This document shows, piece by piece, positions 7,164-43,833 of a stretch of 64,000 nucleotides of DNA; within the stretch, counting starts at the first letter, position 1; every line of letters starts with the position of its first letter. The translations under genes were made by a program, and so were the position numbers. The notes beneath the pieces are model-generated. The model made no database searches and was not told the DNA's origin. It worked only from the letters and a program-made list of their open reading frames with translations. The stretch is taken from positions 25,757 to 89,756 of IMG/VR virus record IMGVR_UViG_3300029309_000008; one strand, given 5' to 3'. The DNA is from a virus.

Positions 7164-8237
<1,074 letters not shown>

Positions 8238-9884: not shown

Positions 9885-10378
9885 TGTTTAAACGAGGTGA
9901 TAGAAAACCATCTTCGTGGGGAGTTCCTGTAAATGTGATGGGTAAAAACTTTGAACGAAAAGTTAAAAGAAAATATCCCAACTTAAAAGACAGGTATACT
10001 CCGACTGAGTGGGCTAACATAAAAAAAGAGTTCTGGGGAACTGCAGCTGATGTTTTGATAAATCAGCCTAACGGAATAGTTTTAGATGGGATAGGATACT
10101 TTTGTTTCCCAGCCTACATAAAAAAAAGTAAATTCCCCTACACAAACAGAACCAATTTTAAGAACAAAGGACTATTGTATTACAGTCAGTTTTTTGGTCA
10201 TGTATTTAATAATTTTTTCTTGAGAGGACTAAGTTTTGAATTTATAAGACCACAAAAGAATAAATGGAAAGACAAAGTAAACGAAGGATACGAATATAAG
10301 TGTCACTACAAGAATATAGATAACATCATAGGCAATGGAAAAAAGCACTTACATCCCACTAGAAGAATTTATCGCTGA
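9884..10378 (+). CDS. IHF/HU-like DNA-binding protein (crAss-type)
   Basis: Basic protein; IVLDGIGYF resembles the HU/IHF V-x-L-x-GFG-x-F motif; crAss-like synteny. Confidence 0.5.
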   Translation: MFKRGDRKPSSWGVPVNVMGKNFERKVKRKYPNLKDRYTPTEWANIKKEFWGTAADVLINQPNGIVLDGIGYFCFPAYIKKSKFPYTNRTNFKNKGLLYYSQFFGHVFNNFFLRGLSFEFIRPQKNKWKDKVNEGYEYKCHYKNIDNIIGNGKKHLHPTRRIYR

Positions 10379-17200: not shown

Positions 17201-18172
17201 ATCCCAGATGATATGCTTGACAATACTATGGATGGGCTAGGAATAGCTATGACATGGGATGACAGGTATATGCGTTTATTCTTAACCAAGTTAGATTCAA
17301 AGGTAAAATCAAGCATTACGATTTGGACAGGAGATGATTCTCTAGCTCCTAATAACAGTATGAGAATCAAAGACTTAGACTTTATCTATAGAAATGATTT
17401 AGGAGTTGATTCTGTTGTAAACCCTCAAGACCCTACGTATTTTGATTTAGCTTCTTGGACGACAGCTTATAGTCCTGTAATTAAGGGGTGGGTATCTTTT
17501 TACTCTTTCACGCCTAACTATTATGTAAGTCATCAGAACTATTTCTCTTCTGGTCTTAATCCTCTTGTAAGTGGGACAAGAAAAGGTAGTACTGCAGGAA
17601 TATGGAATCACTTACTTGGTAGTAACCAAACATTCCAAGTATTCTATGGTTCTAGGCACTCGTGGATTATTGAAACTGTCGCTAAAACTAATTATCAAAG
17701 TAAGCTATATGAAGACTTTAGCTATAGGCTAAATGTTAGAAGATATGTGAATGAGTATGATTACCATTACTTCGATGAAAACTTCGATAAGATGGTTCTG
17801 TACAATGACAGAGAGTCTTCAGGATTATTAAGACTAGTGACTCAAGAGCCTAATAGTTTGAAACAACTTATTGATTTCCCTAAGTTCACTTCTACAGGTA
17901 TTGACATTATAGCCACAAATCAGGATTATACTTGGTCAGTTAACTACTTTTTCGATAATTTAAAAGAAAATCATACACAACCTATTTGGACTAATGCTCT
18001 AAATAATGTAGATAAGGATTTAAACAATGAAGCATTCAACTACAACCCTTCATTCAAAAACCATATTAGAGGTCAATACTTACTAATAAGAATGGAGCAG
18101 AGTAAAGAATCAAGACTTAAGTTTATATTTGAACACTTTATATCAGACTCATTAATGTACGATGCCTACTAA
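11291..18172 (+). CDS. tail stabilization / muzzle protein (P22 gp10-like, crAss-type)
   Basis: GMNKD...Y-x-HALNA N-terminus, LYFTDDLNPRR, GYMRDEV-x-x-FGI, PIRHFKFPD, FGGDTFI, W-x-SFYSF-x-P. Confidence 0.8.
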   Translation: MAKSNKRIDRQIGAPKQGMNKDVHPASLDEKTYTHALNANYEGQDGDIVNLQNEESNILCSKFKPGFKVVGHQIDITGERTYFFLVDDSTTPPRSEIGFIEDLGKQINFTDTVIKCGCSIEAVLSDGLENQVQSETCTYTTLIADYECPNGLTPNHCLNFNINYPISSVLKDDKLGKILYFTDDLNPRRRIELDNISQYYKTPVVCADDADACINCGLMDMLPETPPLCIDVEGTVIGGDVDHGVYAFFAGYCDGEGNMVRDYSASTNTFSVKDPNKDIYTQPELDIPTNFSIKLNINNLDTQFEFYQVAVVAIKEVNGAKSYYSLGVFPTSNQEVLFSGLETLPQENRLGLFEITQTVPEYIKAKFVTNTNNTLYFGDLEGRPDPNLQPVVNFMGQFAKWRTFMAEEDLYSTSYGTGNFKGYMRDEVVPFGIRFVTKKGYKTPIYPLIARVADATSDLYFDDISSGSIPSHQADPTACIAAIKSSINLPTAASTRKWIKDVYSTLRYGNENCNDEERVYKWQYYNTAVEQRRDIDDCATVSSTTVKRDIEKVCSQEENTILGTSVGIPNDNTTALRLDFTEDGTVPEFETPPCDPTTDPTCPCPVGIEVEGFFTGFADYVQNNQSVFEDIANDSTGLYGATQKLLASYFILDNYKEGGIHALDCCDVGFDSSVCGTPTKISEFIEVLGLETRAPCAKIVYEECSYYDRPPESDICFNYAIDPTNGDNKNINIQCAYDVKGDNTQRCENDCGDGAKNYLFTYEFFVGVRKKKDKYNLVFDRTTPVSGGSSCNNSSSLPLSFNEYDSAFTTHITPDFPDIEIVENDGTTSDEDARYISKHINSQEAQVKQLMDKDFIAGYGYGEVDPRQNTNPGSRRKKKFCAKAKNDIYLGLPENAGPFDNSDNVSGPGIFFNGGSAGFPLVDGVDYGRVHNNAVWYKLAVGSNNKIYFAVSRQNDFPSDNDKKDCLWYPEIARVSFFVNCDGDIFENFTLCANPSEKNLNSTKVDLDGPDGVIELDIKAALDSGAFPGGISEIYVAVDTPVVRAEQRPGQANSCFYPGGLGDKEHTDKAGGSGQNIYYYSSGTNCFVVKAYNQAIDYIEAYLAPTQLILEKTCTFKSSCTLSVYDTLKCDPFFRSEGIFSYWESTNIYPDNDFLYNSKNQITNIANLDLGSADANNEFNNIYVTGGELNDKANFACKPIRHFKFPDVNISPMFGADTFFNAQPVPFVPSKIYPIGFHIDNNIINGFLDLAVDNTLITQEFRDSITNYEIFRGDVRLNKSIISKGVLYDMYKHVDEDTNDTSYFSNFPYNDLSDNKLLYRKENRKKFIEHPFKNDLKSNNRFTFHSPNTSFDRDLLPFEMYVETDFVGYSRGAFAKVEDHPKYTVLAPRAYRIARFLAAAETTLDFLTNLSSALIQVGLAGNVGTTTNVLQPVAWVAFGLYTGQALINLVPQGKQNTSKWLTIFRTLGNDRNFANYYSSVGFYNGMYIPPSQEGDKLRGLREKLYIDNGRYRVDEIDEDSNIIINNFNRESSVYLSLGVEKDSSGNVRHNFNLDKSPAIRNYDNSRFIASDKGCFKGAVSREYEAPISSPYVSLKRFLPGQYGGISSVSWFDTAYCGDLTKTNSCEAAFGGDTFISRMYLKRKFSLFSTPALIGKNGTGDNVPYEYSIYRNVGYPRFFLDYLMDGEDDVTIYGNIPNLRSNFEFDCTNSKGLYMKPPSKFYLFYYGIPGFLVESRINLNFRYGRNNSDKFFYPGTRDYLGWTQENYVSVREGEEFSYNENYSKNNDISDAFVLPDNYDPAIWNAQYDNYDRVIFSLPDNNESNRIDNFRYFLSNNYHDFGNKYGRLVDLANIESDKVLVRFENGASIFNSYNVLRGQNQSDPNYAVNPQENRTILKSKPSEFFRTELGYGGTQHRALVSCQLGHFWTDAKRGRVYQLSPNGTSWDEISNKGMKNWFRENLPFRIKTQFKDIPDDMLDNTMDGLGIAMTWDDRYMRLFLTKLDSKVKSSITIWTGDDSLAPNNSMRIKDLDFIYRNDLGVDSVVNPQDPTYFDLASWTTAYSPVIKGWVSFYSFTPNYYVSHQNYFSSGLNPLVSGTRKGSTAGIWNHLLGSNQTFQVFYGSRHSWIIETVAKTNYQSKLYEDFSYRLNVRRYVNEYDYHYFDENFDKMVLYNDRESSGLLRLVTQEPNSLKQLIDFPKFTSTGIDIIATNQDYTWSVNYFFDNLKENHTQPIWTNALNNVDKDLNNEAFNYNPSFKNHIRGQYLLIRMEQSKESRLKFIFEHFISDSLMYDAY

Positions 18173-21100
18173 AAAAAATAACATACCAAAAGGAGGATTC
18201 ATAAGAAACCAAGATGCAGACAGAAAGCAAGAAATCCTAGATTTATTTATTAAAGAGACCAATGAATACGGTGCTCCTAATTATAATGCTACAGCCGAAT
18301 TCCCAAGTCCTATATACGAAGATGCTTACCAAGCGGCCATAGACTACCAGATAGAAATGTTAAACTCGCCTAGAGGCCAAGAGATGTTAAGGCAGGAAAC
18401 GGCAAGAAATTTTTTATTTAATAGAGATAAAAGAAATGAAAGAGCTTTTCAAGAAACTTTTGATGCAAGGTTACGTAATTTAGAAAATGCTAGAAGTTCA
18501 TTATTATTTGCACCAGAAATAGCTGGCACTGCATATGGGATGGCATTTCCAGATGGGGAAAACACTGTCGTTCTTACACAGGAATTAAGAGGGATACCAT
18601 ACACCGTTCCAAATATGTATAGTCCAGATGATTTAATGTTTACAATGGTGCATGAGGCTGACCATGTTGAAAAGGGGTCTGATTTTAATACAGAAGGTTT
18701 TAATTTTTTTGATGCCAATTTACAACCTAAAGCTTTTGAAAAAGTCAGGCTAACACAACGTAAGACAAAGGATGCTCTAGAAAACCTTGATGCCCAATTT
18801 GGAGGAGGATATCAGAGACAAACTGGTATGACCAAAGAAGATTTTTTATCTAATTACAAAAACAAAAAGAAAGGAGAAAAGGCTTATTATTTTGGAGAAA
18901 ATAACCCTGACAAAAAAGTAGAGGGGCATATACCCCTAGTAGAACTATATGATTTTGATTGGGCTACTAACCCTGACGAAGTGTCGTCTCAAATAGTTGA
19001 ACTTCAATTTCTTTCATCTCGGATAGGAATATACGACCCCAAAACAGAAGAATTTAACGAATCGCATTTGAAGAAACTAGAGCAATTAGTAAATTCAAAA
19101 CAGGTCCCTCGAACAGTTTTTAGGACTTTTAAAAACCTTAAGGGTATCTACGAAGATGATAACTTAATAGATATTATGAATCTTATCTCACAGGACAACT
19201 CCATGACAGACCAAACTAATATGACATACGCCCAAAACGGAGGGTATTCTAGACATCAAGATGATATACCAATACTTGACCCTAACCTTCCCATTAGCAG
19301 TCAAGCTAGTGGATATACACAATCCAGCGAAGCAGATAGAATATCTATTCAAGATGCAATGAATCAGGCTAATGCTCAGAGAGAAGAGGATAGGGCAAGG
19401 CTAGAATATTTGAAAAAACTTGATGATGAAGCTAGAGCATTAGGTTTTAATAATTATGCAGAATATTCACAAGCAAAAGGTAAAGAAAATAAAGCGGTAG
19501 TAGACAATACTTTCACAACACAGGCTTCTGATTTAGGTATGTATGATAGTTATCTACCTAATATAGATATAATAGAAGAACAAGGACCACAAAAATTTTT
19601 AGGAAGTGAGTTTCTAGGAGATTTATTTCCATTTGGAGGTGCAGAAATCATACCAGGTCCAAGTGAGGGTATAGATTTTGCAATGGGTGTAGATGCGGTA
19701 GACAGAGGAGCTTACGGAGAGGCAGCAGCTCATGCTGCAGGGTTTATTTTTCCTTTTGTAACGGGAAAGGGAATATTAAATTTTGCAAAAAAATATTTTG
19801 GAAAGTCAACACCACCAGTAGCAAGAAAAAATATTGCACGAGAGGGTGAGAATTTTGTAAGAATAGAAGTGCCCGTTGACCGCTTAGATGAAACTACTAA
19901 TGTTATAACACCTGGTGCCAGAAGTACAAGTCCATCTGTTGCTAGTGGAACAAACGCACCTGGCAGAGCTTCTGTTCATTTAGGAGAAGTGCCTTATTAC
20001 AATAATCCTAATAAAATGCTAAATAATGAAGCACAGTTGGCAGCTTTATCAAATATGAAAAGTCAAGGTAGATACCTAGATGATATTAATTTTAGTAGCT
20101 CTAATTTAAATCCAGGAGATGTTAATTATGTTGGTACTTCAGGTGGAAGACCTGTAGTATCTGTTCAAGTTCCTGGTCCAGATGGTAATATGTCAACTCA
20201 ATATTTTTATAAGTCAACTGGTTTAGGGGGTAAGACTGTAAGAGATGCTGACGGAGTAGTTAGAAGTACGGAAGGCATGTGGCAACCTTTTGGAGGCTTT
20301 GCAAATATAAACATGCATGGACTTCCCCCAGACAAAGAAATACAATGGTTTATAAAAGGTGCGGGATATAAAGATTTTTATGGAAGTAACGCTTTTGAAA
20401 ATATAGCAGAAAATTTAGATGATTTAACAAAGAATCAATTTCGTTATTATGATAGGGCTAATAATCAGTTTGGTCCTAATCCTATAAATAAACAGCAAGG
20501 GGGTTCAGTTAAATTTATGCAAGGAGGTACGATGGGAAGACATCAGGAACAATTTATTGTTAACCCTGATGGAGAGACTACCCCACTAACCGATAGAGGG
20601 TTTTACTATAATAGAGCTCTGGGCAGCAACGTAGGCGGCCAATCAGCTTACTCTGCCCCATCTCCAGGGGGTGGAGGTTTTCTTGGGTCCGCTACTAAAG
20701 ATATGACCCAAGCAGATGTAGTACGTCAGAATATAGTAAAAGATGAGGTAGAAGCTCAAATTGATAGAGACAATCAAAGACAAAGGGAGATAGACAGGGG
20801 AACCCTGCCTGCTTACTCTTTTAACAAAAGATATGGTAAAGATACAGAAACTCTAAATGGGTATGCACCTGGAACCCCAGGACACACCTTTGCTATGTAT
20901 GGACAGGACATAAACCTTTACAGATATGGTGACAATACTGCGGAAGAAAACCGTCAATTAGTAAACGAACTAGAGCAAATATTTAGAGAAAATGGATTAG
21001 GGTATAGTGAGGAATTAAATCAAAGTTTAAAAGCATTTAGAGATAGAGCTTATCATAATTATCTTGTTAAAAATAAAGATGTGCTTGATGGATATTACGC

Positions 21101-24100
21101 TCAAGTAAAAGACTACGATAATTTATTAGCTGCTCAGAGTGCTCCAGGTGTTGATAATACTCGAATGGAGGCAAGAACATTGGAGGCATTTAGACCTGAG
21201 TTTCCTCTAGAAGCCAAAAGAAATCCAGTTGTAATAAAAAAGAGCCCACTGTCGGCAGTTCATAATACTCTTGCATTGGCTGGGATGGTACCTGTTATAG
21301 GTGAACCTCTAGACTTACTTGATGCAGCTTTATACACTCTAGAAGGAGACTACGGAGGGGCTGCTTTAGCTGGTGCATCTGTTGTACCATTTATGGGTAG
21401 TGGTGCAGGGGCTTTAAGACTGACGGGTGCAGCCAAGACTCTGGCAAAAGGTGCAGAGGAAGGGTCTGATTTGAACAGGTATATAAAGCAGATAGAAAGG
21501 GAAAGAAGAATGTATGCAAATCCTGGTGCATCTCAAGAGGGATTTGATTATTTGCGATACTCGGAACAATTCCCCCAACTCAGTAAAGAATCAGAATATT
21601 TAAGTAATTTAGGCTTTTACAATATTAATCGTAAAATGGGTGCCCAAGCAGTAGATGATTACACAAGTTCTCATCATTTAGCAATGAATACAGCTTTTGA
21701 TAATTTAAACTTGCCTAATCAAAAAAGAGCTTCGGCACTCAATGAGTTAGTGCTTGACAACTCTAAAAGAATGGCTAATGATTTAGATGATTTTATTTCG
21801 TCAGGAATAGGAGGAAGAACATCTAAACCCATCACTTTGTCTAGAGCATCAACAGATGAAGTAGTCAGAGTTGTTAATGCAGATAATTCTATTACTGTAA
21901 AAAAGTTTAGCCAGTTACAACCTAACGATGTTATCTTAGAGACTAAGTTTACTTCCTACTATGACCCTAACAGGCCTTTATTTAACCAAAATATGTTTAC
22001 TAAAACTGCCGATGATTATGGATTAGTCTCTAAGACACCATCGCTTGGTTACTTCCCAGTTCGTCAACAAACATATATACCACAGGGTACAAAACTAGGC
22101 GTTCCTACTTTCCACGGTAAAGCAAGGATGTTTCAAGATGAAGCTGAATTTATAGGGAATAGGTTTGGTGTTAGAAGATTCACTGGCATGAATCCAGATG
22201 GAAGTTATGGTTTCCAACTTATAGGGGGCTTTCAAGATGGAGGAAGTGTCTCAGGCGAAGAACCTGTAAGTGACAATGTCATGGATAATGTGGAAGAATC
22301 TATTGACTATAGTCAGTATAATACAGACATACTTATTATGGCTTCTAAATTTTCTATGAGTCCTGATGAGTATATTGAATATTATAATAAGGGAATACAA
22401 ATGCTCAATGCAGGAAATACCATAGACGATTTAGTTAATATGGGTTATGGCAATAAAGAAGCATTATTATCTATGTTTCCTGGGGCATCTGTAGAGTCTA
22501 GAGGCAAATCCCAAACTCTTCAACAAGAAATAAAGCATATTCCTGTAACTAATTTACTAGAGGATACTGACTCTAGAACAGATGTGTCTAAGGTAGGAGC
22601 TGATATGATAGAATTTGTTGATAGTAGTAAAACAAAAGAAAGTGCTACATCAAAAATGCAGTCGGGAGGTATATTTGAAAATCCCATAACATCTGCTATG
22701 GAGAGTATGGATGAGTTCGGTAATATGATTGTAAATCAAAATTTAAAAAATGCTCTAGGGGAAACAGTAGAAGATACCTTTGGATTTAACTTCTTACCCG
22801 ATGATTCAAATTGTGAGGTGGAGGTGATTTACAAGGCACAGGAAGGGGGATATTATATGAATCAAGACAATGTAGTTAGACAATTAGTCGAAGACGCTGG
22901 AGACAGAGCAGGAAAAATTTATGATTTTATTTCAGACATGGGAGACCTTGCTGAAGATATTATAGAAATATCAAAAAATCCAAATTATGTAAATCAAAAT
23001 CAGCCCTTCCTTAATAAAGCACTGGATGCATTTAAATTGTATTTATCAGGTACTCCCGCCCCAGTTAAGACAGAGCAAGGGGAGAATGCAGATAGTCCTG
23101 TTGCATTGACTCCTGCAAAAATTAATGCTAATAATATCACAGCTGCTATAGAGCAAGTAGCGAAAGATGACGAAAATCTAGCTACACTCCTGGGTATGAC
23201 AGCTTACATGGAAAATTCGTATGGAGCGAATCCAAATGCTTACGGTAGAGAGTATACACATAGTTTTATGTCTCTTGATGACCCTTCTCTAAATCAAATT
23301 TTTGATATTAGAACTGGAGCTACTGATTATACAAAAGGTCAAAAAGCTATATTTAATATGTTTGAAAGCTTAGGCCTGCCGTCAGACAAAGAGTCGTTTA
23401 CAGAACTTTTAGACAAGGACGACCCTCTCGCTTCTGTAGCCGCAGCTAGGGCGTACTATGCTACTGTGCCTGAAGCACTGCCAGCATCATCAGATACTGA
23501 AGAGTTATTTAATTACTTTAGTAAGTACTACAACAGAGGAGGTCAAGGCAAGTACCAAACTGAGGAAGAATCACTTAACAGGTTTTTAGAGGGCTATACT
23601 CGACTGGTAGAGCAAGAGGACTTTGCGAATGGCGGCACTGTTGGTGAAACGGGAAAAATACTAGTTTCTAGTAATGGAGTATTTGACCGTAATTATGAAC
23701 CAGGCAAACCAGTGATTGTTCCTACAAGAAATGGTGTAATAACTATGGACGGTGTTGATGAAGACCTTTTAGCTATAAGTAATCTTGGAGAGTTTCGATT
23801 TATGGATGCTGATTCTGGTAATTATCAATTTGAAGGTAAAACTGTTCTGGAAGTGCCTGTTAAAATGTTTTATGGTAAAGATGGCGGTCTAGCTGATTGG
23901 TTTAAAGAAGAGTGGGTAAGAATCGATACTGAGGGCAATATCACAGGACCTTGTGGTACTATGAAAAAAGGCAAAGCCACTACCAGATGTCTTCCTAAAA
24001 AGAAAGCACAGTCCTTAAGCAAGGCAGAAAGAAAAGCAACTGCCCGTAAAAAGGTAAGAGGTTCTAAAAAGGGAAAACAGTTTGTAGCGAATACTAAGAA

Positions 24101-24626: not shown

Positions 24627-24646
24627 AGGTAATTAAATGTAACATA

Positions 24647-24678
24647 TTTGTATTATCCGATTAATTGTTTTATATTTA
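24647..24678 (+). promoter_or_regulatory. Bacteroidota-type sigma70 promoter candidate
   Basis: TTTG-N20-TATATTTA, one mismatch to the TTTG-N19-21-TAnnTTTG consensus, in an 85-bp intergenic gap. Confidence 0.45.
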
Positions 24679-24711
24679 AACCTCCACTAAAGTACAAATT
24701 TCATACTAAAA

Positions 24712-27700
24712 ATGGCACAGGAATTTAAAAGAAAAAATGCCCCTCAATATAAGGATGGCGGGGGCTATTTCAAACATCAAATGATTAGTCCTTTTTTTGG
24801 GGTGTCAAACACTCCTGTGTTCGGGGTATCTCAAACTCCAGTAATGGGTTCGGCTTCTCAACCTTGGTGGCAAAGTATGTTTAGATTCTTACCTGCAAAC
24901 ACTCGAAGTGCGATAAGAACTCTATCGGGTAGAGGTGCGGGTTCAGGCACCCGTGGGGGAGGAACTCCTACACAAAACTTAATGAGGTTAGGCATAGAGA
25001 CAGGCCAAGTAGGTCCTGTTTCAGAGACATATAGGGAAACAAATATGCCTTACTTCGATTTGATAAGATTTCTTGCAAAATCTACATATGGTAGAGAGGA
25101 GCTAACTTCAGAAGAGTGGGACCGCATGTTAGGTGTTAATGCCGACAAGGTGGGGTTTTTAGGGGATTACTCTCGAATGATTAAAAGACTTGATTATTTT
25201 GATGAAGAAAAGGGGTATGAAATTCCTACATTAGCAAAAGATATTATACTAACCTTCGATGATGACGGTACAGCGTATTATGTGCCTTATGATGAGAAGA
25301 TAATGCAAGGAGATGCAGAAGCAAGGAAACAAGGAATACAAAATGCTTTTGGTGGACTTGATAACCCCTATTTGAATAGAGCTTTTGAAAATCAGAATAT
25401 ACCGATATATGGTCTTGATGAGTTCTATCCAGAGGATAAAAGATATTTAGTATACAACAGTGCTTTAAACAGGGTAGAAGTTATGGGTGAGGGACTTGCT
25501 AACCCTATTAAAAGTATGAGCATGAAAAGGTTTCAAGAACTTTACCCACAATTAGACACTTCAGGTGTACAAGCTTCTGGAGCTGATGTAAGAATAAATA
25601 TACCTGAAGAAGGAATAACTATAGGCGAAATGTCAGGGGGCATAAAGATTAGGCAAGAAGGGGGATTAACCTTAGCAAAAGACGGAAAAAAAATGAAAAA
25701 AGGATACACAAGAAAACAAGATAATACTGGAGCAACTGGAGCAACTGGAGCAACTGGAGCAACAGATGATGGAGCAGTCACACCTGGAGGGTCGGTAACT
25801 ACCACATCCACTTCTTCGCAAGACCAAGCCGTAACGGGTGCAGGGCCACAGCAGAGTACATTTGTAGGAGACCCTACCCAGCAACCATACCTCACTAAAA
25901 AGGAAGCTAGGCGAGCAAGAAAGGACTTAAGACTTTCAAATAGAACAGGTGTGCCTATCAACCTTTTTGGTAGTTTTCTAGACATGCCTATGGGTGACCC
26001 TAGTACTATTGCAAGAATGGCTGGACTTTCAGGAAGACCTGGTATGTATGGCAGACTTGGAGCTAGTATAGGAGGTAATGTATTGCAAGGATTACTTGCA
26101 GGAGCTCAACGAACAGGTGGAGGACGATTTGGAGGATTTTTTATGCCGCAAAATACTTTGAATCAAATGGCAGGAACGGGCATGGGCATGGGCATGGGTG
26201 ACGGTGTTAACGTTCAAGTTTTAGGACCTCTACAGAGAAGAAGACTACAGAGAAGAGGTGTAGACTTAGTACCTGCCTCGCAGTATATTACTGAAGGTTT
26301 TGAAAGAGGGAGAGTAGAACCTATCGAAGCCGTAGAACCAGGTACATTAAGCACAGAAGAAGCACAAACAGAACAAACTGCCTCAACAGGGCAAACTGCC
26401 TCAACAGCGACTACTCCACAAATGTATGAAATAGCTCCAGGGAGGACTACCACTAGTCAAATCAATCCTGAAACAGCAGATATAAATAGGCTGCTCTTTG
26501 CAGCAGGGTATGGTGTAAGACCAGGAAGAGCTAGACGAGCAATGATGGAAGATGCAAACATAGGTAGAGGAGATATTAGACTAGAAAGACAAACAACACC
26601 TTTTGGAGCAACTCGACAAGAAGCTATAGACAATCTTCTTAGAGAATACTTTATAGAACAGGTCCTACCTACCTTAAATCCTGATGCATTTATTCAAAAT
26701 AATATGCAAGGAGGAACTATCGTGGGGGGAACGCCTACTTCACAATATGGGGTAACTGTAAATCCTCTAAATAACTACGCAGGTTCCTTTATGGATTCAG
26801 CACTTAGTGCTGCTGGCTCATATGCTAATGGAGGATACACTAGGAATCAGGGTGCTCAAACAACCATACCCTCAATAGGAACAATGCAAAGACGATTAGA
26901 CCAAGCAGTTAGTGCTATTGCATCAATCACCGATTTATATGGAGATACTAAAGATGAAACTGTGGCTACTATTAATAGTTTTTCATTAGATGATTTAAAT
27001 AAGGAAATTAATAGACCAGGACTAGACCCTATTGTAAAATCACAATTACAAATTCTTAGGGACGGGTTAACTACGTCTCAAACAAATGCTTTGATTACCC
27101 CTCAAGATGGGTATACTATGAACAGAGATGGATTTGATGGTCAAACTTATGAAGAGTACGCTAAAACTACTCCTAACCCAATTCCTAAAGATGTTTTTAT
27201 TGCAAAAGGCCTAGCTATGGGTAATGAGAGCGTAGCTATGGAAGGAATGGTTATTCCCCCACCTCCGTCACCAACTAGAATCGGTATGCGTATGGCTCAA
27301 GAGGGTATACAAACTCCAATCGATTACTCTAGCAGTGATGCAAGTTTGATGGGAGATGAGCAAATGATGGCTAATGCTTTTAATAATTCTATGATGGCAG
27401 GAAATAATATTCCTAATGGTGGGATGATGATGGCAGCTGACGGAATGATGAAAGAAGATATGGGCGTTAATAACGCTATACAGCAGTATAGAAACGAAAT
27501 GTATCTTAGAAATGGAGGTGCGGTAGTGCGAAGTAGAGATGCATACTCTCCTGCTATACCTATGGGTTCAGGGATGGGGCCAAGCAACCTTTCACAATCA
27601 TTAGTAGACACAGCAATGGGGCCTGATTTAACTCAAGAACAAATGGATGTTCTAAATATGGTTGTAGGTGAAGAACCTATGGTACTGCCTGGTAATTCCG

Positions 27701-27777
27701 AGATAGTTCAAGGTAAATTTGGACCTATACACAGTCCTACTCCTGAGTATTTAATGAGAACAAATAGAATGGCATAA
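24712..27777 (+). CDS. modular virion cargo polyprotein 2 (low complexity, G/M/Q-rich)
   Basis: 1021 aa; YKDGG, RQEGG, YANGG, LRNGG and AQEG linkers. Confidence 0.6.
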   Translation: MAQEFKRKNAPQYKDGGGYFKHQMISPFFGVSNTPVFGVSQTPVMGSASQPWWQSMFRFLPANTRSAIRTLSGRGAGSGTRGGGTPTQNLMRLGIETGQVGPVSETYRETNMPYFDLIRFLAKSTYGREELTSEEWDRMLGVNADKVGFLGDYSRMIKRLDYFDEEKGYEIPTLAKDIILTFDDDGTAYYVPYDEKIMQGDAEARKQGIQNAFGGLDNPYLNRAFENQNIPIYGLDEFYPEDKRYLVYNSALNRVEVMGEGLANPIKSMSMKRFQELYPQLDTSGVQASGADVRINIPEEGITIGEMSGGIKIRQEGGLTLAKDGKKMKKGYTRKQDNTGATGATGATGATDDGAVTPGGSVTTTSTSSQDQAVTGAGPQQSTFVGDPTQQPYLTKKEARRARKDLRLSNRTGVPINLFGSFLDMPMGDPSTIARMAGLSGRPGMYGRLGASIGGNVLQGLLAGAQRTGGGRFGGFFMPQNTLNQMAGTGMGMGMGDGVNVQVLGPLQRRRLQRRGVDLVPASQYITEGFERGRVEPIEAVEPGTLSTEEAQTEQTASTGQTASTATTPQMYEIAPGRTTTSQINPETADINRLLFAAGYGVRPGRARRAMMEDANIGRGDIRLERQTTPFGATRQEAIDNLLREYFIEQVLPTLNPDAFIQNNMQGGTIVGGTPTSQYGVTVNPLNNYAGSFMDSALSAAGSYANGGYTRNQGAQTTIPSIGTMQRRLDQAVSAIASITDLYGDTKDETVATINSFSLDDLNKEINRPGLDPIVKSQLQILRDGLTTSQTNALITPQDGYTMNRDGFDGQTYEEYAKTTPNPIPKDVFIAKGLAMGNESVAMEGMVIPPPPSPTRIGMRMAQEGIQTPIDYSSSDASLMGDEQMMANAFNNSMMAGNNIPNGGMMMAADGMMKEDMGVNNAIQQYRNEMYLRNGGAVVRSRDAYSPAIPMGSGMGPSNLSQSLVDTAMGPDLTQEQMDVLNMVVGEEPMVLPGNSEIVQGKFGPIHSPTPEYLMRTNRMA
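26911..27060 (+). repeat. dispersed direct repeat, copy 1 (paralog at 33061-33210)
   Basis: 125/150 identical by manual ungapped alignment, including a 32-bp perfect core. Confidence 0.9.
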
Positions 27778-27786
27778 ACAATTCGT

Positions 27787-30700
27787 ATGTTTAGAAAAAA
27801 AGTAATTAGAAACCAAGAGGTACCTGTAGACCCAAATGCATATCAGTCTACCAACCCTGCCTATCAATATATTCCAGCAGGTATAGATATGATGGCAACA
27901 GAAGGGGAGCCTGCTACTGATGTTTTTGGAAATCCTAGGCCTCTTGTTTTTAAAAGACGAGCCCTTGGTAGTTTTGACTCTCAAGAAGACTTTAATAAGT
28001 ATCACGCAATAGTGAGGAATCGTCAAAATCAAATGTCTACTTCTGGAAAAATAATAGATGAAATTCAACAAGCATTGGTGGATGCAGCTTACGTTTTAAC
28101 TAATCCATTGAGTACGTATAAGGATGCTCATAGCATGGAGGGTTTGAGAAGAATGAGAGGTGAAATTGAGCAGAACGGAGGATATATTAGAAATCAAAAT
28201 GCTGTAGGAACTTCACTACCAGGATATGGGGGGTTTGCAGGACCTGGATTACCTGCAAATATTGATGCTGACTCAGATGGTATACCTGATGCATATGATA
28301 GTTTACCAGACTCAACGGGAGGCTCTTTTGTATTTGACACCCCAACTACAACTACTGAATCAACTACATCTCCGATGGTACCTTTTGTGCCTGACACAGT
28401 CGAAAGTCTTCCAAATATGAGACAGTTTAACCCTTATCAAAATGTTGGTTTTGGGTTGAGCACTGCCTTAACATCGGATAGTGCGGGTGAAAGAAGAGCT
28501 GGTGCTGTTCTTACAGGATTAGCAGGGGCTTCCTCAGCGTTTGACCTTGGCAGCAATCTATTGCTTGGTAGAGGGGCCAACAAAGAAATAACAGACATGA
28601 TGGCCCAAGCAGATAGAACTGCAGGCCTTGATTTTCAAGCACCTATTATGGACCAAACAGAAGGAGTAGAGTCTGCGTTATCTAGAACTGGCTTTGCTCA
28701 AGATGGTGCAACTATGTACAAAAAAGGTGGTAAGTCTAAAAAGAAAAATAAACCTAATAACCCTTCATTGTGGTCAAGAGCCATTGCTGCAGCAAAGAAA
28801 AAGTTTGATGTTTATCCATCGGCTTATGCCAATGCATGGGCTGTACAATGGTACAAAAAGAAAGGAGGCACTTGGAGAAAAGCTCAAGATGGTTTTGTAT
28901 ACGAAGAAGGAGGTCAAATCACTATTGAAGAGCAACTATCAGGTAGAAACGTGACGGGAATAGCTAGACCTGAATTATCAGGGACAGAGATAAATGCAGA
29001 GCTTGAGAAAAACGAATACGTTGAGTACCCAGAAGAGCAAAAAATATCTAAAGTTATAGGAAAGTCACACGCCCAAGGTGGAGAAAAAATGAACCTAGAG
29101 CCAGGTACAAGAATCCTCTCTGACAATATAAAGGTAGGTGCCGAGTACAAGAAAGCTTTATCTGATTTATTTGATATGAAAAATATCAAAGCAAATGATA
29201 CTGTAGCGAAGGTGATGGAAAAGTATCTTCAAAAGTCAGGAATTACAGCTATACAAAAAAGACAAGAAGAGGTACTGAAAGGTCTTAAAGAAAATATGTC
29301 TGTTAAGGACGAGGCTACTAGAAGAACTAACGAGCAGTTCTATGCTGATAAAATTATTAAGACTCAAGCTGAATTAAACGAGAAGCAAAAAGAACAAACA
29401 CTAGTGTTCAATGTATTGTTCCAGATGCAAGAAGCTCGTAAAGCTAAAAATGAGCAAGGAGACCCCTCTGCAAAAAACATTAGAAAAAGACCACCATTAG
29501 AACAGGAATTCGTACCTTACGAAGGCCCACCCCCAGTAGAAGAAGAAACCGCACAACCAGTTGAAGTGGCTCTGCAAAACGGAGGCACTATAGATATTTT
29601 AATGGATGGTACTAAAATATATGCATCTCCAGAAGCAATAGAAATTGTACGAAGAGATGCTTTAGAAGGAGGCTATGGCGACTTTATGGAGTACCTATCT
29701 GAAAATGTAACGGGTAGATACGCAGATGGTGGAGGTATCCCTGAGAGATACAAGAAAAAAGGCTTTAGAAAAGTAGGTGTAAAGAAAAGAGCTCCATCTG
29801 GTTCAAAACACAAGTGGGAAGTACTTGCACGCAAAAAAGTAGGAGGTAAGACTCGTTACAAAATTGTTAAAGGAGGCTTTAGAGGGATGAAGGACTTTAC
29901 CCAACACAAAGACAAAAAACGTCAAAAAAGTTTCTGGGATAGAATGGGAGGTAAAAACTCTGCTAAAACAAAAGACCCATTTTCTCCACTTTATTGGCAC
30001 AAACGCTTTGGTACTTGGGAAGATGGTGGTAAATTAGATGCGAAGAAAAATTTTAAACCGCATTGGATGTACGACCCTAATAACCCAAATAAGGCTGAGT
30101 TTGCAGAAAAGTATGAAGACCACGTAAGACTTGATAAGCTAGGATATGTTTACGAGAAGCCTAAAATCGAAGACTTTGAGTACGGTGGTATGAGCAGATA
30201 CCAAAGTGCGAATCAGGTTGAAATTATTGTCGATGCAGACGGTAATAGATATATTCCTCAGTTTAGAGACAGAGAGACAGGACAAGTTGTATATGCTGAT
30301 GCACAAGGTAATTATGTTGTACCTGGGCAAATGACTACTGAAAATTCAACTTTTAATGCAAATGCTCGAGGTATATACCGTGCGGGGCAGTATGGTTATG
30401 ATGAATTGGATGACGTAGGAAAGTCTAAATTAGACGAATCGTCTGGAGCTACAGCAGACTATGTGGCTGAACAATACAAAAAAACAGGAAGCGTACAAGG
30501 TCTTACTGTAAACGTGTTTGGTGCAAGTTCAAAAACTCCTGTTTCGCCCAAGAGCCAGATAGAGATATTTGAAAGCTTAGGCTATGAGCAAATTGGTAGT
30601 AACAAAAATAGATATAGAGTTCCTGATTTAGCTAATGACCCTACAGGTCAAACTTTTATAGAGGTTCTGGTTGGTACTTCTGAAGCAAGTGATGCAGCTA

Positions 30701-31641
30701 ATTATGGTTTACCTAAACTAAGAACTTCAGACCAAATTACTAAACTAAAAGAAGACCTATTAGCTAGAGGTATACCTCAAGAGCAAATTGACCAAATTGC
30801 TTTTAACACACAGGAAAGACCTATGATAGGTCCTGAATACGGAGGCGAAGGTGTCAGAAGCGATGACCCTAAGTATATGGGGTACCAAAACTCTGGTTTT
30901 AGCGTAGACTTGGCAGAAGATAAACAAGGTATGGTACCTTATGGTTATATGGAGGAAACACCACAACAGGAATTTGATTTTGAAATTCCTAATTTGGGAG
31001 CTTCTCTTAGTGTGCCAGCATTAGACTTTACCAGTGATTTAGTCAGACCTAGTATAGGCATAGCTACAACTCCTTTGCAACAACAAGCTAGAGTAGACCT
31101 CCAGCCTGTAAAATATAGTGAAGAACAAGCCCTTAGAGAGGGTGCGGCTGCTACTAATTTGGCTATGCGACAGTCTGCTAATATGGGAGGACCAGAAGCT
31201 AGGACTGCTGCAGTAGGCTCACAAAGTGTTAGAAGCCAGTATGCTAATGAGGCTACTCTACAAAGACAGGAAAAGGATGCGGAATCAGTATTTAAAACTG
31301 ATTTAGCAGAGGCACAGCTTAACAGCCCAATTGATAGTGCTAACTTAACTAGACAGTATCAGTACTCCTCTAATGCACTCAAAGCTGTTGATAATGAGAT
31401 ATCAGCCATTGCTGATTTTGAAAAAGCAGTACTTGACAGAGCAGACCAAAAAGAAAGGTTCGCTAATACATTAGCAGTTATGGGTCAATTTGCTCCTAAT
31501 TTCATGGTAACTCCTTCGGGTCCAGTATTCAACCCAGGAACACAGACAGATATACTGTATCCTTTTGCTAGCAATATAGCTCAACAAGTTCTTGCATCAT
31601 CAGGACAACCTATATCATTCGAGCAAGCATCTGGAAACTAA
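27787..31641 (+). CDS. modular virion cargo polyprotein 3 (DUF5872-like N-half, ExE/SHxxGG domain, DUF5754-like module)
   Basis: 1284 aa; many xxxGG linkers; NAELEKNE...GKSHAQGG...ILSD domain followed by a coiled coil. Confidence 0.6.
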   Translation: MFRKKVIRNQEVPVDPNAYQSTNPAYQYIPAGIDMMATEGEPATDVFGNPRPLVFKRRALGSFDSQEDFNKYHAIVRNRQNQMSTSGKIIDEIQQALVDAAYVLTNPLSTYKDAHSMEGLRRMRGEIEQNGGYIRNQNAVGTSLPGYGGFAGPGLPANIDADSDGIPDAYDSLPDSTGGSFVFDTPTTTTESTTSPMVPFVPDTVESLPNMRQFNPYQNVGFGLSTALTSDSAGERRAGAVLTGLAGASSAFDLGSNLLLGRGANKEITDMMAQADRTAGLDFQAPIMDQTEGVESALSRTGFAQDGATMYKKGGKSKKKNKPNNPSLWSRAIAAAKKKFDVYPSAYANAWAVQWYKKKGGTWRKAQDGFVYEEGGQITIEEQLSGRNVTGIARPELSGTEINAELEKNEYVEYPEEQKISKVIGKSHAQGGEKMNLEPGTRILSDNIKVGAEYKKALSDLFDMKNIKANDTVAKVMEKYLQKSGITAIQKRQEEVLKGLKENMSVKDEATRRTNEQFYADKIIKTQAELNEKQKEQTLVFNVLFQMQEARKAKNEQGDPSAKNIRKRPPLEQEFVPYEGPPPVEEETAQPVEVALQNGGTIDILMDGTKIYASPEAIEIVRRDALEGGYGDFMEYLSENVTGRYADGGGIPERYKKKGFRKVGVKKRAPSGSKHKWEVLARKKVGGKTRYKIVKGGFRGMKDFTQHKDKKRQKSFWDRMGGKNSAKTKDPFSPLYWHKRFGTWEDGGKLDAKKNFKPHWMYDPNNPNKAEFAEKYEDHVRLDKLGYVYEKPKIEDFEYGGMSRYQSANQVEIIVDADGNRYIPQFRDRETGQVVYADAQGNYVVPGQMTTENSTFNANARGIYRAGQYGYDELDDVGKSKLDESSGATADYVAEQYKKTGSVQGLTVNVFGASSKTPVSPKSQIEIFESLGYEQIGSNKNRYRVPDLANDPTGQTFIEVLVGTSEASDAANYGLPKLRTSDQITKLKEDLLARGIPQEQIDQIAFNTQERPMIGPEYGGEGVRSDDPKYMGYQNSGFSVDLAEDKQGMVPYGYMEETPQQEFDFEIPNLGASLSVPALDFTSDLVRPSIGIATTPLQQQARVDLQPVKYSEEQALREGAAATNLAMRQSANMGGPEARTAAVGSQSVRSQYANEATLQRQEKDAESVFKTDLAEAQLNSPIDSANLTRQYQYSSNALKAVDNEISAIADFEKAVLDRADQKERFANTLAVMGQFAPNFMVTPSGPVFNPGTQTDILYPFASNIAQQVLASSGQPISFEQASGN

Positions 31642-43812: not shown

Positions 43813-43833
43813 ACACCAACTTAAATAAAATAA

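What the first reader, a model, noticed from the sequence alone, without database searches (positions are those of the whole stretch)
18162..31641. Three consecutive virion ORFs look like GG-punctuated multi-effector polyproteins
Seen: a short linker recurs at apparent domain boundaries. ORF1 has YAQNGG (19227), KQQGG, FMQGG, FQDGG (22230), MQSGG, AQEGG, FANGG (23622), YGKDGG, YEAGG and MLDGG. ORF2 has YKDGG, RQEGG, MQGG, YANGG, LRNGG and single-G variants AKDG, PQDG, AMEG, AQEG, AADG. ORF3 has EQNGG, FAQDG, YKKGG, AQDG, YEEGG, LQNGG, YADGG, WEDGG and FEYGG. The segments between linkers differ sharply in character (enzyme-like, very basic, acidic, low-complexity). The motif is rare in the four downstream giant ORFs. 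Known: adenovirus and ASFV proteases and Ubl proteases cleave after GG, and FAxGG-like motifs occur in tape-measure proteins. Inference: these are polyproteins cut into many packaged and ejected effectors, forming a plug-in cargo cassette.
Basis: partly seen in the sequence, partly recalled or inferred. Interest (0 to 1): 0.88.

Follow-up and report, generated by a model that had tools for sequence, protein, structure and literature searches.

The report
Gly-Gly seams in phage cargo proteins
Three large proteins that this crAss-related phage most likely carries in its particle and injects are strings of swappable modules joined by one short conserved peptide ending in Gly-Gly, but nothing yet shows that the strings are cut there.

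Summary
The strict motif [FYWM]-x-x-G-G occurs 15 times in ORF1-3 (4,459 aa) and 11 times in the other 28 ORFs (15,270 aa), Poisson P 1.5e-6. ORF2 alone is not enriched.

The three ORFs follow crAss-type ring and muzzle genes, which is where phage crAss001 keeps its cargo proteins. Small families known as stand-alone phage proteins sit exactly between motifs. Close relatives add, drop or swap whole units from one GG to the next. In 52 distant proteins, 57% of 705 GG contexts carry F/Y/W/M three residues before the GG, against a background of 14%.

So "plug-in cargo cassette" is supported. "Cut into effectors" is not shown. No C5, C48, C39, S78, S77 or ClpP protease was found in 4 of 4 records. 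About a quarter of inter-motif stretches are 20 aa or shorter. An uncut hinge or docking handle is about as likely as a cut site.

The closest known kinds are the polyvalent proteins of Iyer et al. 2017 and the crAss001 cargo proteins. My searches found no paper describing the seam motif. This scan has noted the same motif before on other phage DNA.

The parts
9186..9884 (+). Context: tail ring protein 2
   Evidence: Pfam PF25702 CrAss_Ring_2, E 2.3e-26
10335..11291 (+). Context: tail ring protein 1
   Evidence: Pfam PF24228 CrAss_Ring_1, E 1.6e-12; phrog_34036 virion structural protein
11291..18172 (+). Context: muzzle-type protein (ORF0, 2293 aa), the gene just upstream of the cargo block
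   Evidence: phrog_37948, E 1.5e-286. 37% identical to phi4:1 gp042 and 31% to the csAssE-Sib protein annotated 'Muzzle protein'
18162..24626 (+). ORF1, 2154 aa, modular cargo protein with about 12 seams
   Evidence: Relatives differ from it by whole units
18162..18197 (+). ORF1 N-terminal basic leader ending IPKGG, followed by the tag FIRNQ
   Evidence: The same leader occurs in P0070, P0074 and P0080; P0072 starts MPKGG-FTRKQ
18198..19244 (+). ORF1 module(s) 13-361: uncharacterised HExxH (HEADH at residues 164-168) domain whose helical C-terminal part ends in YAQNGG. It is a putative zincin-like metallopeptidase. A further GGG seam lies at residues 214-216
   Evidence: A 396-aa stand-alone homologue, P0081. 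Alignment A3 keeps E165 and H168 in at least 90% of rows and E273 in all. Two copies in phi4:1 gp041. The AF2 model is poor (mean pLDDT 49.2) and the best VIA rows are M13 zincins at only Z 4.5. No Pfam, NCBIfam or PDB sequence match
19227..19259 (+). Seam YAQNGG plus tag YSRHQ. In P0071 it is one end of the 429-aa deletion; in P0072 it is the right border of the swapped N-terminal module
20490..20549 (+). Double seam KQQGG-SVKFMQGG plus tag TMGRHQ, the other end of the P0071 deletion
22230..22244 (+). Seam FQDGG
22656..22670 (+). Seam MQSGG. Around this seam, relatives P0070 (109 aa, just after it, ending KQAGG) and P0072 (about 200 aa, just before it) carry an extra unit
22836..22865 (+). 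Seam AQEGG plus tag YYMNQ, left border of a unit absent from P0073 and P0075-77
23160..23561 (+). ORF1 residues 1667-1800, match to phrog_3108 (unknown function), inside the unit 1564-1825
   Evidence: My guess of a lysozyme was not borne out: BLASTP against the phi4:1 gp041 N-terminus gave E 2.7
23622..23636 (+). Seam FANGG, right border of the unit 1564-1825
23871..24146 (+). Seam YGKDGG, a basic 86-aa module (pI 10.5), then seam YEAGG
   Evidence: phrog_23735 profile positions 2-80 of 81 match ORF1 1908-1986. The 78-aa stand-alone protein of phage C75C1 starts MG-ELKKW, in register with the GG, and ends without a motif. P0075-77 end just before the second seam
24405..24419 (+). Seam MLDGG
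24712..27777 (+). ORF2, 1021 aa, Gly/Met/Thr-rich cargo protein with few seams
   Evidence: Not enriched for the strict motif
24712..24780 (+). ORF2 N-terminal leader ending QYKDGGG, then tag YFKHQ
25690..25719 (+). KMKKG-YTRKQ. Relative P0111 starts here (MKRG-YTKKQ)
26821..27120 (+). Variable slot in ORF2: YANGG-YTRNQ, about 85 aa, then PQDG-YTMNRD
   Evidence: The stretch is replaced or lengthened in the ORF2 homologue on L005, in P0110 and in P0111. P0110 has EQNGG-YSRNMD where ORF2 has PQDG-YTMNRD
27787..31641 (+). ORF3, 1284 aa, modular cargo protein
27787..27816 (+). ORF3 N-terminus MFRKK-VIRNQ: the tag without a GG
28168..28197 (+). Seam EQNGG plus tag YIRNQ
28717..28914 (+). Seams YKKGG, WYKKKGG and YEEGG around a basic 46-aa module
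   Evidence: phrog_27331 at ORF3 330-355; pI 10.4. Similar stretches stand in distant proteins for which PF19197 is precomputed, by my reading of the printed sequences
28897..29463 (+). Conserved domain of ORF3 (residues 371-559), shared with phi4:1 gp040
   Evidence: phrog_36695, E 2.2e-21. Many invariant columns in A1. AF2 pLDDT about 60-88 in the 10-residue blocks of ORF3 401-570; Foldseek found no match at E <= 0.001
29572..29586 (+). Seam LQNGG. The GG is kept in 15 of 15 homologues
29719..30030 (+). Seam YADGGG, a very basic DUF5754-like module (pI 11.2), then seams DRMGG and WEDGG
   Evidence: Pfam PF19058 at ORF3 673-720, E 5.9e-5, 23.5 bits, below the 27.4 cut-off. GG is invariant in 15 of 15 rows at 649-650, 721-722 and 747-748. 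Large insertions in 4 homologues start right after WE[DEQ]GG
30175..30204 (+). Seam FEYGG plus tag MSRYQ
31669..35274 (+). ORF4, first conserved gene after the variable cargo block; motif-poor
   Evidence: 1 strict motif in 1201 aa. Similar N-terminus in the positional counterparts on L013, L015 and L016. phrog_32131

Best explanation
ORF1-3 are the cargo (ejection) proteins of a crAss-related phage. They sit where phage crAss001 has cargo genes gp45 and gp46. Each is a chain of small, independently evolving modules: very basic peptides (a DNA-binding role is only my guess), an HExxH domain, and many modules of unknown function.

Every seam carries a conserved peptide: hydrophobic (M/Y/W/F) - polar - polar - Gly - Gly. 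In this lineage the seam is often followed by the tag [YF]-x-R-[NH]-Q. Whole units from one GG to the next are gained, lost and swapped between relatives, so the block works as a plug-in cassette.

My leading reading of the seam itself is inferred, not shown. I take it to be a recognition site at which the chain is cut after Gly-Gly, in the particle or after ejection, by a protease not yet identified. Candidates are the cargo-borne HExxH domain, whose own C-terminus is a canonical Y-A-x-N-G-G, or a host enzyme. The modular cassette part I hold at about 0.85. The confidence given below is for the whole statement including the cut.
For: Position:
- CrAss_Ring_2, CrAss_Ring_1 and a muzzle homologue lie directly upstream.
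- phi4:1 gp040 and gp041 are annotated as virion proteins by MS/MS.

Motif:
- 15 in 4,459 aa against 11 in 15,270 aa.
- Absent from portal, putative scaffold and MCP.
- In 52 distant proteins, 405 of 705 distinct GG contexts have F/Y/W/M at -3, background 14%.
- Preferences run from P5 to P2' (P4 A/Q/E/K, P3 D/E/N/Y, P1' E/I/Y/Q/S, P2' Pro 110 against 28 expected). That is a footprint of the size proteases read.

Seams are module borders:
- phrog_23735, phrog_27331 and DUF5754 matches lie between motifs.
- A stand-alone 78-aa phage protein starts in register with the GG and has no motif at its end.
- P0075-77 and phi4:1 gp041 end without a motif.
- The junction GGs tested in the AF2 model of ORF3 301-1030 lie in coil, and all but one (721-722) in or beside stretches with pLDDT under 50.
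- Junction GGs are invariant in 15 of 15 homologues down to 38% identity.

Cassette exchange:
- P0070 has a 109-aa unit inserted after KMQSGG and ending KQAGG.
- P0071 lacks 429 aa between two GG-x-x-RHQ seams.
- P0072 has its first module swapped between MPKGG-FTRKQ and TFAEGG-YSRHQ.
- P0073 and P0075-77 lack 1564-1825.
- The ORF2 slot after YANGG-YTRNQ is replaced in 3 relatives.
- L016 has 117 aa between two YQDGG.
- Both ends lie within 3 aa of a GG in 2 of 13 internal indels of at least 20 aa, against 0.107 expected, P 0.004.

Precedent for a cut at a glycine-rich junction of a phage virion protein: TP901-1 Tal (passages of PMC11409707). Iyer et al. 2017 propose that an embedded metallopeptidase processes polyvalent proteins (passages of PMC5512222). 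HExxH occurs in 39 of the 111 proteins collected.
Against: - No cut has been observed.
- 0 of 4 records (this contig, CheckV 59% complete, and the whole records of phi4:1, csAssE-Sib and crAss001) match Peptidase_C48, C5, C39, S78, S77 or CLP_protease at E <= 1.
- The HExxH family is absent from csAssE-Sib and crAss001 and is swapped out in P0072. Its fold is not established: mean pLDDT 49.2, best Z 4.5.
- Natural N-termini carry the tag without a GG (ORF3, and P0111 with a single G).
- P0008 and P0009 have lost the seam at ORF3 375. P0073 and P0075-77 have only single-G remnants at one junction.
- 124 of 543 distinct inter-motif stretches are 20 aa or shorter.
- An N-terminal motif within 30 aa occurs in 26 of 101 proteins against 17.8% expected, so it is barely enriched.
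- P1' Pro is depleted but present: 13 of 509 against 28 expected.
- 10 of the 13 internal indels are not GG-to-GG. With a loose test (either end within 8 aa of any GG) the count is 7 of 13 against 4.75 expected.
- N4 virion RNA polymerase, a polyvalent protein, is packaged uncut (passage of PMC5512222).
Confidence: 0.4

Rival explanations
1. The chains are not cut. In this reading the seam peptide is a hinge plus a short docking handle. Gly-Gly gives flexibility between beads that must unfold and pass the tail one after another. The hydrophobic residue, and the lineage-specific tag after the GG, dock the cargo to a partner inside the capsid or tail barrel, or make the cargo stick to itself. 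The handle is repeated for avidity.
For: - Tandem arrays of motifs only 5-20 aa apart: 124 of 543 stretches, for example GG-SVKFMQ-GG and GG-FQD-GG here and the runs in P0018 and P0043.
- Tags stand at natural N-termini without a GG.
- Tags differ by lineage ([YF]-x-R-[NH]-Q here, W-L-D-K-Y elsewhere), as expected for co-evolution with a partner.
- No protease was found.
- In crAss001, short pieces of gp45 are seen bound to the portal and to the ring proteins, and no processing is mentioned in the passages read.
Against: Only three positions are tightly constrained (one hydrophobic residue and GG), which is little for a binding handle. A plain hinge needs no conserved residue at P5 and no preferences at P4, P3, P1' and P2'. 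No partner is known and no complex was predicted here.
Confidence: 0.38
2. In this reading the motif has no function of its own as a peptide. It is a tolerated scar or a convenient in-frame recombination joint: short similar stretches at seams let illegitimate or homologous recombination shuffle cassettes, and the repeats persist for that reason.
For: The deletion in P0071 joins two seams inside the shared RHQ tag (GGYSRHQ|EQF). Units come and go between GG seams.
Against: - Copies of the seam use different codons and share only about 8 identical bases at the P0071 joint (my reading of the codons), so the DNA is not what is conserved.
- GG and the P5 residue stay invariant in orthologues at 38% identity.
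- The same peptide pattern recurs in unrelated proteins and in crAss001 gp45. This points to selection on the protein.
Confidence: 0.1
3. In this reading the pattern is a chance or compositional effect of Gly-rich, low-complexity proteins, and ORF1-3 are ordinary structural proteins.
For: ORF2 alone is not enriched (2 against 1.85 expected).
Against: 0 of 2000 shuffles reach the ORF1 count and 10 of 2000 the ORF3 count. The P5 bias is 57% against 14% in independent proteins. GG-to-GG indels have P 0.004. Family boundaries fall at the motifs.
Confidence: 0.03

Closest known systems
Polyvalent proteins of phages and conjugative elements (Iyer, Burroughs, Anand, de Souza, Aravind 2017, PMC5512222; passages read)
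   Same: Giant multi-domain proteins encoded among late or virion genes and thought to be delivered with the DNA. They mix unrelated effector domains, show extensive mosaicism, and often have an embedded HExxH metallopeptidase proposed to process them. Two distant proteins that share a module with ORF3 carry Pfam PF18760, which I recall as the ART-PolyVal family.
   Different: ORF1-3 match none of that paper's Pfam families (LPD, ART-PolyVal and so on) at E <= 0.01. The only link is a weak language-model lead to LPD23, score 0.87. The paper's main text holds neither 'linker' nor 'glycine' (0 occurrences each), so the seam motif is not part of that description.
Cargo proteins C1 (gp45) and C2 (gp46) of Bacteroides phage crAss001 (Bayfield et al. 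2023, PMC10172136; abstract and passages read)
   Same: They are the genes directly after the ring and muzzle genes. They are stored in capsid and tail and thought to be ejected partly unfolded. gp45 itself has a basic N-terminal leader ending FDTGG (17-21), plus FAEGG (260-264) and FAYGG (559-563). Its Pfam domain crAss_CARG1 (424-555) stops 4 aa before FAYGG.
   Different: There is no sequence relationship: no PF25725 or PF25712 match in ORF1-3, and hhalign of A1 against gp45 gives probability 0.2%. ORF1-3 are far larger (4,459 aa against 1,376 aa) and far more modular.
Internal proteins of T4 (IPI-III, Alt) and inner-body proteins of phiKZ-like phages, cut by the prohead protease at short motifs (recalled, not read here; related cases in earlier notes e1-5766136 and e1-6057127)
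   Same: Head-internal, ejected proteins marked by a short degenerate motif that is enriched only in them, with leader peptides at the N-terminus.
   Different: Those motifs end in Glu, and the protease (S77 or related) is encoded next to the head genes. No S77 or S78 protease was found here, and MCP, portal and scaffold carry no motif.
Gly-Gly-cut polyproteins of adenovirus, ASFV and other large DNA viruses (adenain C5, pS273R; consensus recalled, not read here)
   Same: Core or internal virion proteins, some very basic, cut after Gly-Gly with a hydrophobic residue upstream.
   Different: The hydrophobic residue there is at P4 ((M/I/L)-X-G-G); here it is at P5. No C5 or C48 protease was found in 4 of 4 records.
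Tail-associated lysin Tal of lactococcal phage TP901-1 (passages of PMC11409707)
   Same: A virion protein processed at a glycine-rich motif that lies at the junction between a structural domain and a catalytic domain.
   Different: There is one long Gly run (NGGGNSGGGD) in one protein, not a short motif repeated at many seams. It is a tail-tip protein of a siphovirus. Pfam found no match at all in ORF1-3, so no domain shared with Tal is detectable.

Membership tests
Polyvalent proteins (Iyer et al. 2017) | Several unrelated domains in one polypeptide of a phage or conjugative element | tested here: met
   Separate PHROG or Pfam families match separate inter-motif segments. Units are present or absent independently in relatives.
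Polyvalent proteins (Iyer et al. 2017) | Carries the hallmark domains of the class (MPTase, LPD families, ART-PolyVal and others) detectable by their profiles | tested here: inconclusive
   No Pfam match in ORF1 or ORF2, and only DUF5754 below cut-off in ORF3. An HExxH domain is present but unassigned. LPD23 is only a 0.87 lead. 2 of 66 distant homologues carry PF18760.
Polyvalent proteins (Iyer et al. 2017) | Encoded among late or virion genes and delivered into the host with the DNA | tested here: inconclusive
   The gene position is met, and the phi4:1 counterparts are annotated as virion proteins by MS/MS. Delivery cannot be tested with these tools.
crAss001 cargo protein 1 / 2 families (Pfam PF25725, PF25712) | Match to the family profile | tested here: not met
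   No match at E <= 0.01, while gp45 and gp46 match at 2.3e-66 and 6.4e-219. hhalign probability 0.2%.
crAss001 cargo protein 1 / 2 families (Pfam PF25725, PF25712) | Genes directly downstream of ring and muzzle genes | tested here: met
Gly-Gly-cut viral polyproteins (adenain / pS273R / Ulp1-like type) | Cognate cysteine protease (C5, C48 or related) encoded by the virus | tested here: not met
   0 of 4 records at E <= 1 for PF00770 and PF02902. The window's own contig is only 59% complete, but phi4:1, csAssE-Sib and crAss001 were searched whole. C57 and C63 were not searched.
Gly-Gly-cut viral polyproteins (adenain / pS273R / Ulp1-like type) | Consensus with the hydrophobic residue at P4 ((M/I/L)-X-G-G; recalled) | tested here: not met
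   F/Y/W/M are 57% at P5 but only 7% at P4.
Gly-Gly-cut viral polyproteins (adenain / pS273R / Ulp1-like type) | Cleavage products observed in virions | not testable with these tools
   Needs proteomics. Supplements and extended data of the relevant papers were not available.
Prohead-protease-processed internal proteins (T4 / phiKZ / HK97 type) | Prohead protease gene (S77, S78 or ClpP-like) in the head module | tested here: not met
   0 of 4 records for PF03420, PF04586 and PF00574. The gene between portal and MCP has no protease match.
Prohead-protease-processed internal proteins (T4 / phiKZ / HK97 type) | The same motif also processes capsid, scaffold or portal proteins | tested here: not met
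   No [FYWMLIV]..GG in portal, putative scaffold or MCP.
Zincin-like metallopeptidase (for ORF1 residues 13-361) | HExxH on a helix plus a third ligand downstream, and a zincin fold | tested here: inconclusive
   The E and second H of HExxH are kept in at least 90% of the 10 rows and E273 in all. HExxH lies on a predicted helix, 155-171. The top VIA rows are M13, M35 and M1 peptidases but only at Z 3.8-4.5, on a model with mean pLDDT 49.2. There is a weak NCBIfam metalloprotease hit for phi4:1 gp041: E 0.008, 16 bits against a cut-off of 80.

The most novel reading that the evidence does not exclude
The M/Y/W/F-x-x-Gly-Gly seam is the cut site of an undiscovered processing system shared by crAss-related phages and many other uncultured phages. 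The protease could be the uncharacterised HExxH domain that rides in the cargo and ends in its own Y-A-x-N-G-G. Under this reading, three genes here would deliver some 25 separate proteins into the host. In this lineage each larger product would begin with the same [YF]-x-R-[NH]-Q peptide. It could also explain why different parts of crAss001 gp45 are seen in the capsid (425-552) and in the tail (214-245): they would be separate fragments cut at FAEGG 264 and FAYGG 563.
Probability: 0.33. Interest if true: 0.85.

Novelty: new variant of a known kind. Interest (0 to 1): 0.62.

Why it matters
crAss-like phages are among the most abundant gut and marine viruses. What they inject ahead of their DNA, and how, is largely unknown.

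A conserved seam gives three things:
- A simple rule for splitting these huge unannotated proteins into their real functional units.
- An explanation for how cargo sets diversify so quickly, by exchange of whole units between seams.
- A sharp test that can be run on cultured phages. crAss001 gp45 carries three such motifs, and phi4:1 gp040 and gp041 carry several.

If the seams are cut, this would be a new phage polyprotein-processing system with an unknown protease. If they are not cut, it is a new kind of repeated handle for packing or ejecting proteins.

Tried and rejected
Approaches that led nowhere:
- Function of the modules. Pfam on the whole ORFs and on 10 large segments at E <= 1, NCBIfam and phmmer against PDB gave nothing significant. 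I therefore do not adopt 'enzyme-like' labels. The ADP-ribosyltransferase and toxin-tip ideas of earlier notes e1-6115362 and e1-6115363 got no support from these scans, and I did not test them further.
- My own guess that ORF1 1564-1825 is a lysozyme. BLASTP against the lysozyme-like N-terminus of phi4:1 gp041 gave E 2.7, and phrog_3108 has no function. I dropped it.
The AF2 model has pLDDT about 60-88 in the blocks of ORF3 401-570, but Foldseek against PDB found 0 matches at E <= 0.001. There is no support and no refutation.
- Fold of the HExxH domain. The AF2 model was poor (mean pLDDT 49.2). VIA wide gave 0 chains at Z >= 5. The A3 profile against PDB gave a best E of 0.012, to an unrelated helicase fragment. 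Pfam found no relevant family in 10 of 10 family members.
- Known proteases. Six families were searched in 4 records with 0 matches.
- Relatives among named phages. tblastn of the DUF5754-like stretch and of ORF1 261-361 found no match; the low-complexity filter may be the cause. ORF1 as a whole matched only one record, over 4% of its length.
- Statistics that did not support me. The loose indel test gave 7 of 13 against 4.75 expected. The strict-regex count gave 5 of 14 indels, including one at an N-terminus. The N-terminal leader count gave 26 of 101 against 17.8% expected. For some searches I left out indels that touch a protein end.
- Literature. Four searches for a description of the seam motif or its families found none, and the name csAssE-Sib is in no paper of the library. 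Subscription papers are not covered. The phi4:1 virion proteomics paper (Holmfeldt et al. 2013) is recalled, not read. Supplements and extended-data figures (for example the MS coverage map of gp45 in PMC10172136) were not seen and may bear directly on cleavage.
- Not run: complex prediction, the look-up of sequencing runs, read laying, the RNA tools, and the metagenome contigs and genome-contig scans. I make no binding claim, and reads cannot show protein processing.

Full report
WHAT THE WINDOW IS

The window is the right-hand 64 kb of an 89.7-kb viral contig that CheckV rates 59% complete. Terminase, portal and major capsid genes lie upstream.

Inside the window, + strand genes run from tail fibres to a block of giant ORFs. 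A - strand replication block starts near 49.7 kb.

Three genes identify the phage type:
- 9186-9884 matches Pfam CrAss_Ring_2 and 10335-11291 matches CrAss_Ring_1.
- ORF0 (11291-18172) matches phrog_37948 at E 1.5e-286. It is 37% identical to gp042 of Cellulophaga phage phi4:1 and 31% identical to the csAssE-Sib protein annotated 'Muzzle protein'.

So this is a crAss-related phage of the phi4:1 kind. ORF1 (18162-24626, 2154 aa), ORF2 (24712-27777, 1021 aa) and ORF3 (27787-31641, 1284 aa) stand where crAss001 has its cargo genes gp45 and gp46, directly after the muzzle gene. The phi4:1 genes in the same place (gp041, gp040) are annotated as virion proteins from MS/MS.

THE OBSERVATION

Listing every GG with its context shows a pattern: a hydrophobic, mostly aromatic or Met residue three positions before the first Gly, then two mostly polar residues, then GG.

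To avoid circular reasoning I derived the motif from other proteins. In the 52 proteins P0018-P0069 of the ORF3 search, nearly all of which share only the DUF5754-type module with it, 405 of 705 distinct GG contexts have F/Y/W/M at that position (background 14%); Met alone is 30%. Applied to the window, [FYWM]..GG gives:
- ORF1: 8 (0 of 2000 shuffles reach it).
- ORF3: 5 (10 of 2000).
- ORF2: 2 (not enriched).
- ORF1-3 together: 15 in 4,459 aa, against 11 in 15,270 aa for the other 28 ORFs, Poisson P 1.5e-6.

Portal, putative scaffold and MCP have none. The downstream giant ORFs have 1, 1, 0 and 1.

A second feature follows 8 of the GGs: the tag [YF..]-x-[RKM]-[NHKY]-Q. It is found once in ORF4 and nowhere else among 240 six-frame ORFs of the contig. 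It also stands at the very start of ORF3 (MFRKK-VIRNQ) and just after short basic leaders in ORF1 and ORF2.

SEAMS ARE MODULE BORDERS

Family matches end at the motifs:
- phrog_23735 (81 positions) covers ORF1 1908-1986, between YGKDGG and YEAGG.
- phrog_27331 lies between YKKGG and WYKKKGG of ORF3.
- The DUF5754 match ends at residue 720, just before GG 721-722.

The 78-aa stand-alone homologue in phage C75C1 starts MG-ELKKW, in register with GG-LADWF, and ends without a motif. Proteins that end with a given module also lack the motif there (P0075-77, phi4:1 gp041). So the motif belongs to the joint, not to the fold.

In an AlphaFold model of ORF3 301-1030 (15-sequence alignment, mean pLDDT only 56.6), the junction GGs lie in coil, and all but one (721-722) in or beside stretches with pLDDT under 50. 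The in-domain SHAQGG lies in a loop of the one confident domain. Junction GGs at 599, 649, 721 and 747 are invariant in 15 of 15 homologues down to 38% identity. The non-junction ALEGG at 628 is not conserved. One seam (375) is lost in P0008 and P0009.

Segments differ strongly in charge: three have pI 10.4-11.2, and most of the rest have pI 4-5.6.

CASSETTE EXCHANGE

A relative 84-92% identical over the three ORFs (IMG/VR contig, L005) and other homologues differ from the window by whole units:
- P0070 has 109 aa inserted right after KMQSGG, and the insert itself ends KQAGG.
- P0071 lacks 429 aa, with the joint GGYSRHQ|EQF made from two seams.
- P0072 has a different first module between MPKGG-FTRKQ and TFAEGG-YSRHQ, and an extra unit of about 200 aa just before the MQSGG seam.
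- P0073 and P0075-77 lack 1564-1825, the unit between AQEGG and FANGG.
- P0111 starts at the ORF2 tag (MKRG-YTKKQ).
- The ORF2 stretch after YANGG-YTRNQ is replaced in three relatives.
- In another lineage, L016 has 117 aa between two YQDGG that L015 lacks.

The statistics are mixed, and I give them all. Of 13 internal indels of at least 20 aa in nine pairwise alignments, 2 have both ends within 3 aa of a GG, against 0.107 expected (P 0.004). A third is at 5 aa. With a loose test (either end within 8 aa) the count is 7 against 4.75 expected, which is not significant. Several indels lie inside modules.

In the positional counterparts of four more distant contigs the picture repeats: the ORFs between muzzle and the ORF4 homologue reach 3-9 strict motifs per 1000 aa, and the ORFs after them 0-2.7.

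WHAT THE SEAM DOES

This step is inference. Preferences extend from P5 to P2', which is the size of a protease footprint. There is a precedent for cutting at a glycine-rich domain junction of a phage virion protein in TP901-1 Tal. Iyer et al. proposed that embedded metallopeptidases process polyvalent proteins.

ORF1 starts with an uncharacterised HExxH domain (13-361):
- It has a 396-aa stand-alone homologue, P0081.
- phi4:1 gp041 carries two copies.
- Its helical tail ends in Y-A-x-N-G-G across many unrelated proteins.
- HExxH occurs in 39 of the 111 proteins collected.
- I could not establish its fold.

Against cutting:
- No C5, C48, C39, S78, S77 or ClpP protease in any of 4 records, three of them searched as whole phage records.
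- The HExxH family is absent from csAssE-Sib and crAss001.
- Tags stand at natural N-termini without a GG.
- Some seams are lost.
- 124 of 543 inter-motif stretches are 20 aa or shorter, which looks like tandem arrays.
- The passages I read of the crAss001 paper mention no processing.

I put the cut-site reading at about 0.4, an uncut hinge or handle at about 0.38, and a mere recombination scar at 0.1. At the DNA level the seams share little, which argues against the scar reading.

COMPARISON WITH WHAT IS KNOWN

The architecture fits the polyvalent proteins of Iyer et al. 2017. The position fits the cargo proteins of crAss001. However, ORF1-3 match neither set of Pfam families.

crAss001 gp45 carries the motif three times:
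- At the end of its N-terminal leader (17-21).
- After the tail-bound helix (260-264).
- 4 aa after its portal-binding Pfam domain (559-563).

Four literature searches found no description of the seam motif. Earlier notes of this scan report the same or similar seams in other crAss-like phages, so this is a recurring feature rather than a peculiarity of this contig.

VERDICT

The cassette idea is supported. Cleavage remains open. This is a new variant of a known kind. It is of real interest because it is general and because it can be tested at once on cultured phages.

Noticed in passing
window 18198-19244 (ORF1 residues 13-361); L001 26929-29148 (phi4:1 gp041): An uncharacterised HExxH domain family with no Pfam, NCBIfam or PDB match. 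phi4:1 gp041 has two copies after a lysozyme-like N-terminus. HExxH occurs in 39 of 111 collected cargo-like proteins, often as HE-x-[ST]-H-x-x-D by my reading of the printed hits.
   Followed up: partly
L008 16988-19516 (crAss001 gp45): gp45 carries FDTGG (17-21), FAEGG (260-264) and FAYGG (559-563). The two pieces resolved by cryo-EM (214-245 in the tail, 425-552 on the portal) lie in different inter-motif segments, so cutting could explain the dual location.
   Followed up: partly
P0067, P0087, P0097 (N-termini); P0085, P0086 (C-termini): Other lineages have a different peptide after the GG: W-L-D-K-Y (or W-L-D-N at protein ends). The part after the seam is therefore lineage-specific, while the part before it is general.
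   Followed up: no
window 25720-25760 (ORF2 residues about 337-350): A short Thr-Gly-Ala repeat (TGATGATGATGA in protein letters) whose length differs by 1-2 residues between close relatives.
   Followed up: no
window 7164-8237: A collagen-like tail fibre gene: phrog_5073 and many other tail-fibre families match it, and it is 14.6% Gly.
   Followed up: no
window 31669-49113: ORF4-ORF7 (1201, 2210, 644 and 1759 aa) are motif-poor and conserved in order with phi4:1 gp039-gp035. By position they may correspond to the virion RNA polymerase proteins of crAss001, but I did not test this.
   Followed up: no
L002 (csAssE-Sib) 1-2174 and 13344-19771: The gut relative carries a diversity-generating retroelement next to a tail-fibre gene and two TnpB-type genes within the tail module, as annotated in the record.
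   Followed up: no
L007 5231-6994 (phage C75C1): A run of very small, highly basic ORFs next to the head genes. One is the stand-alone form of the ORF1 basic module. The same modules therefore exist either as separate tiny genes or strung into one chain.
   Followed up: partly
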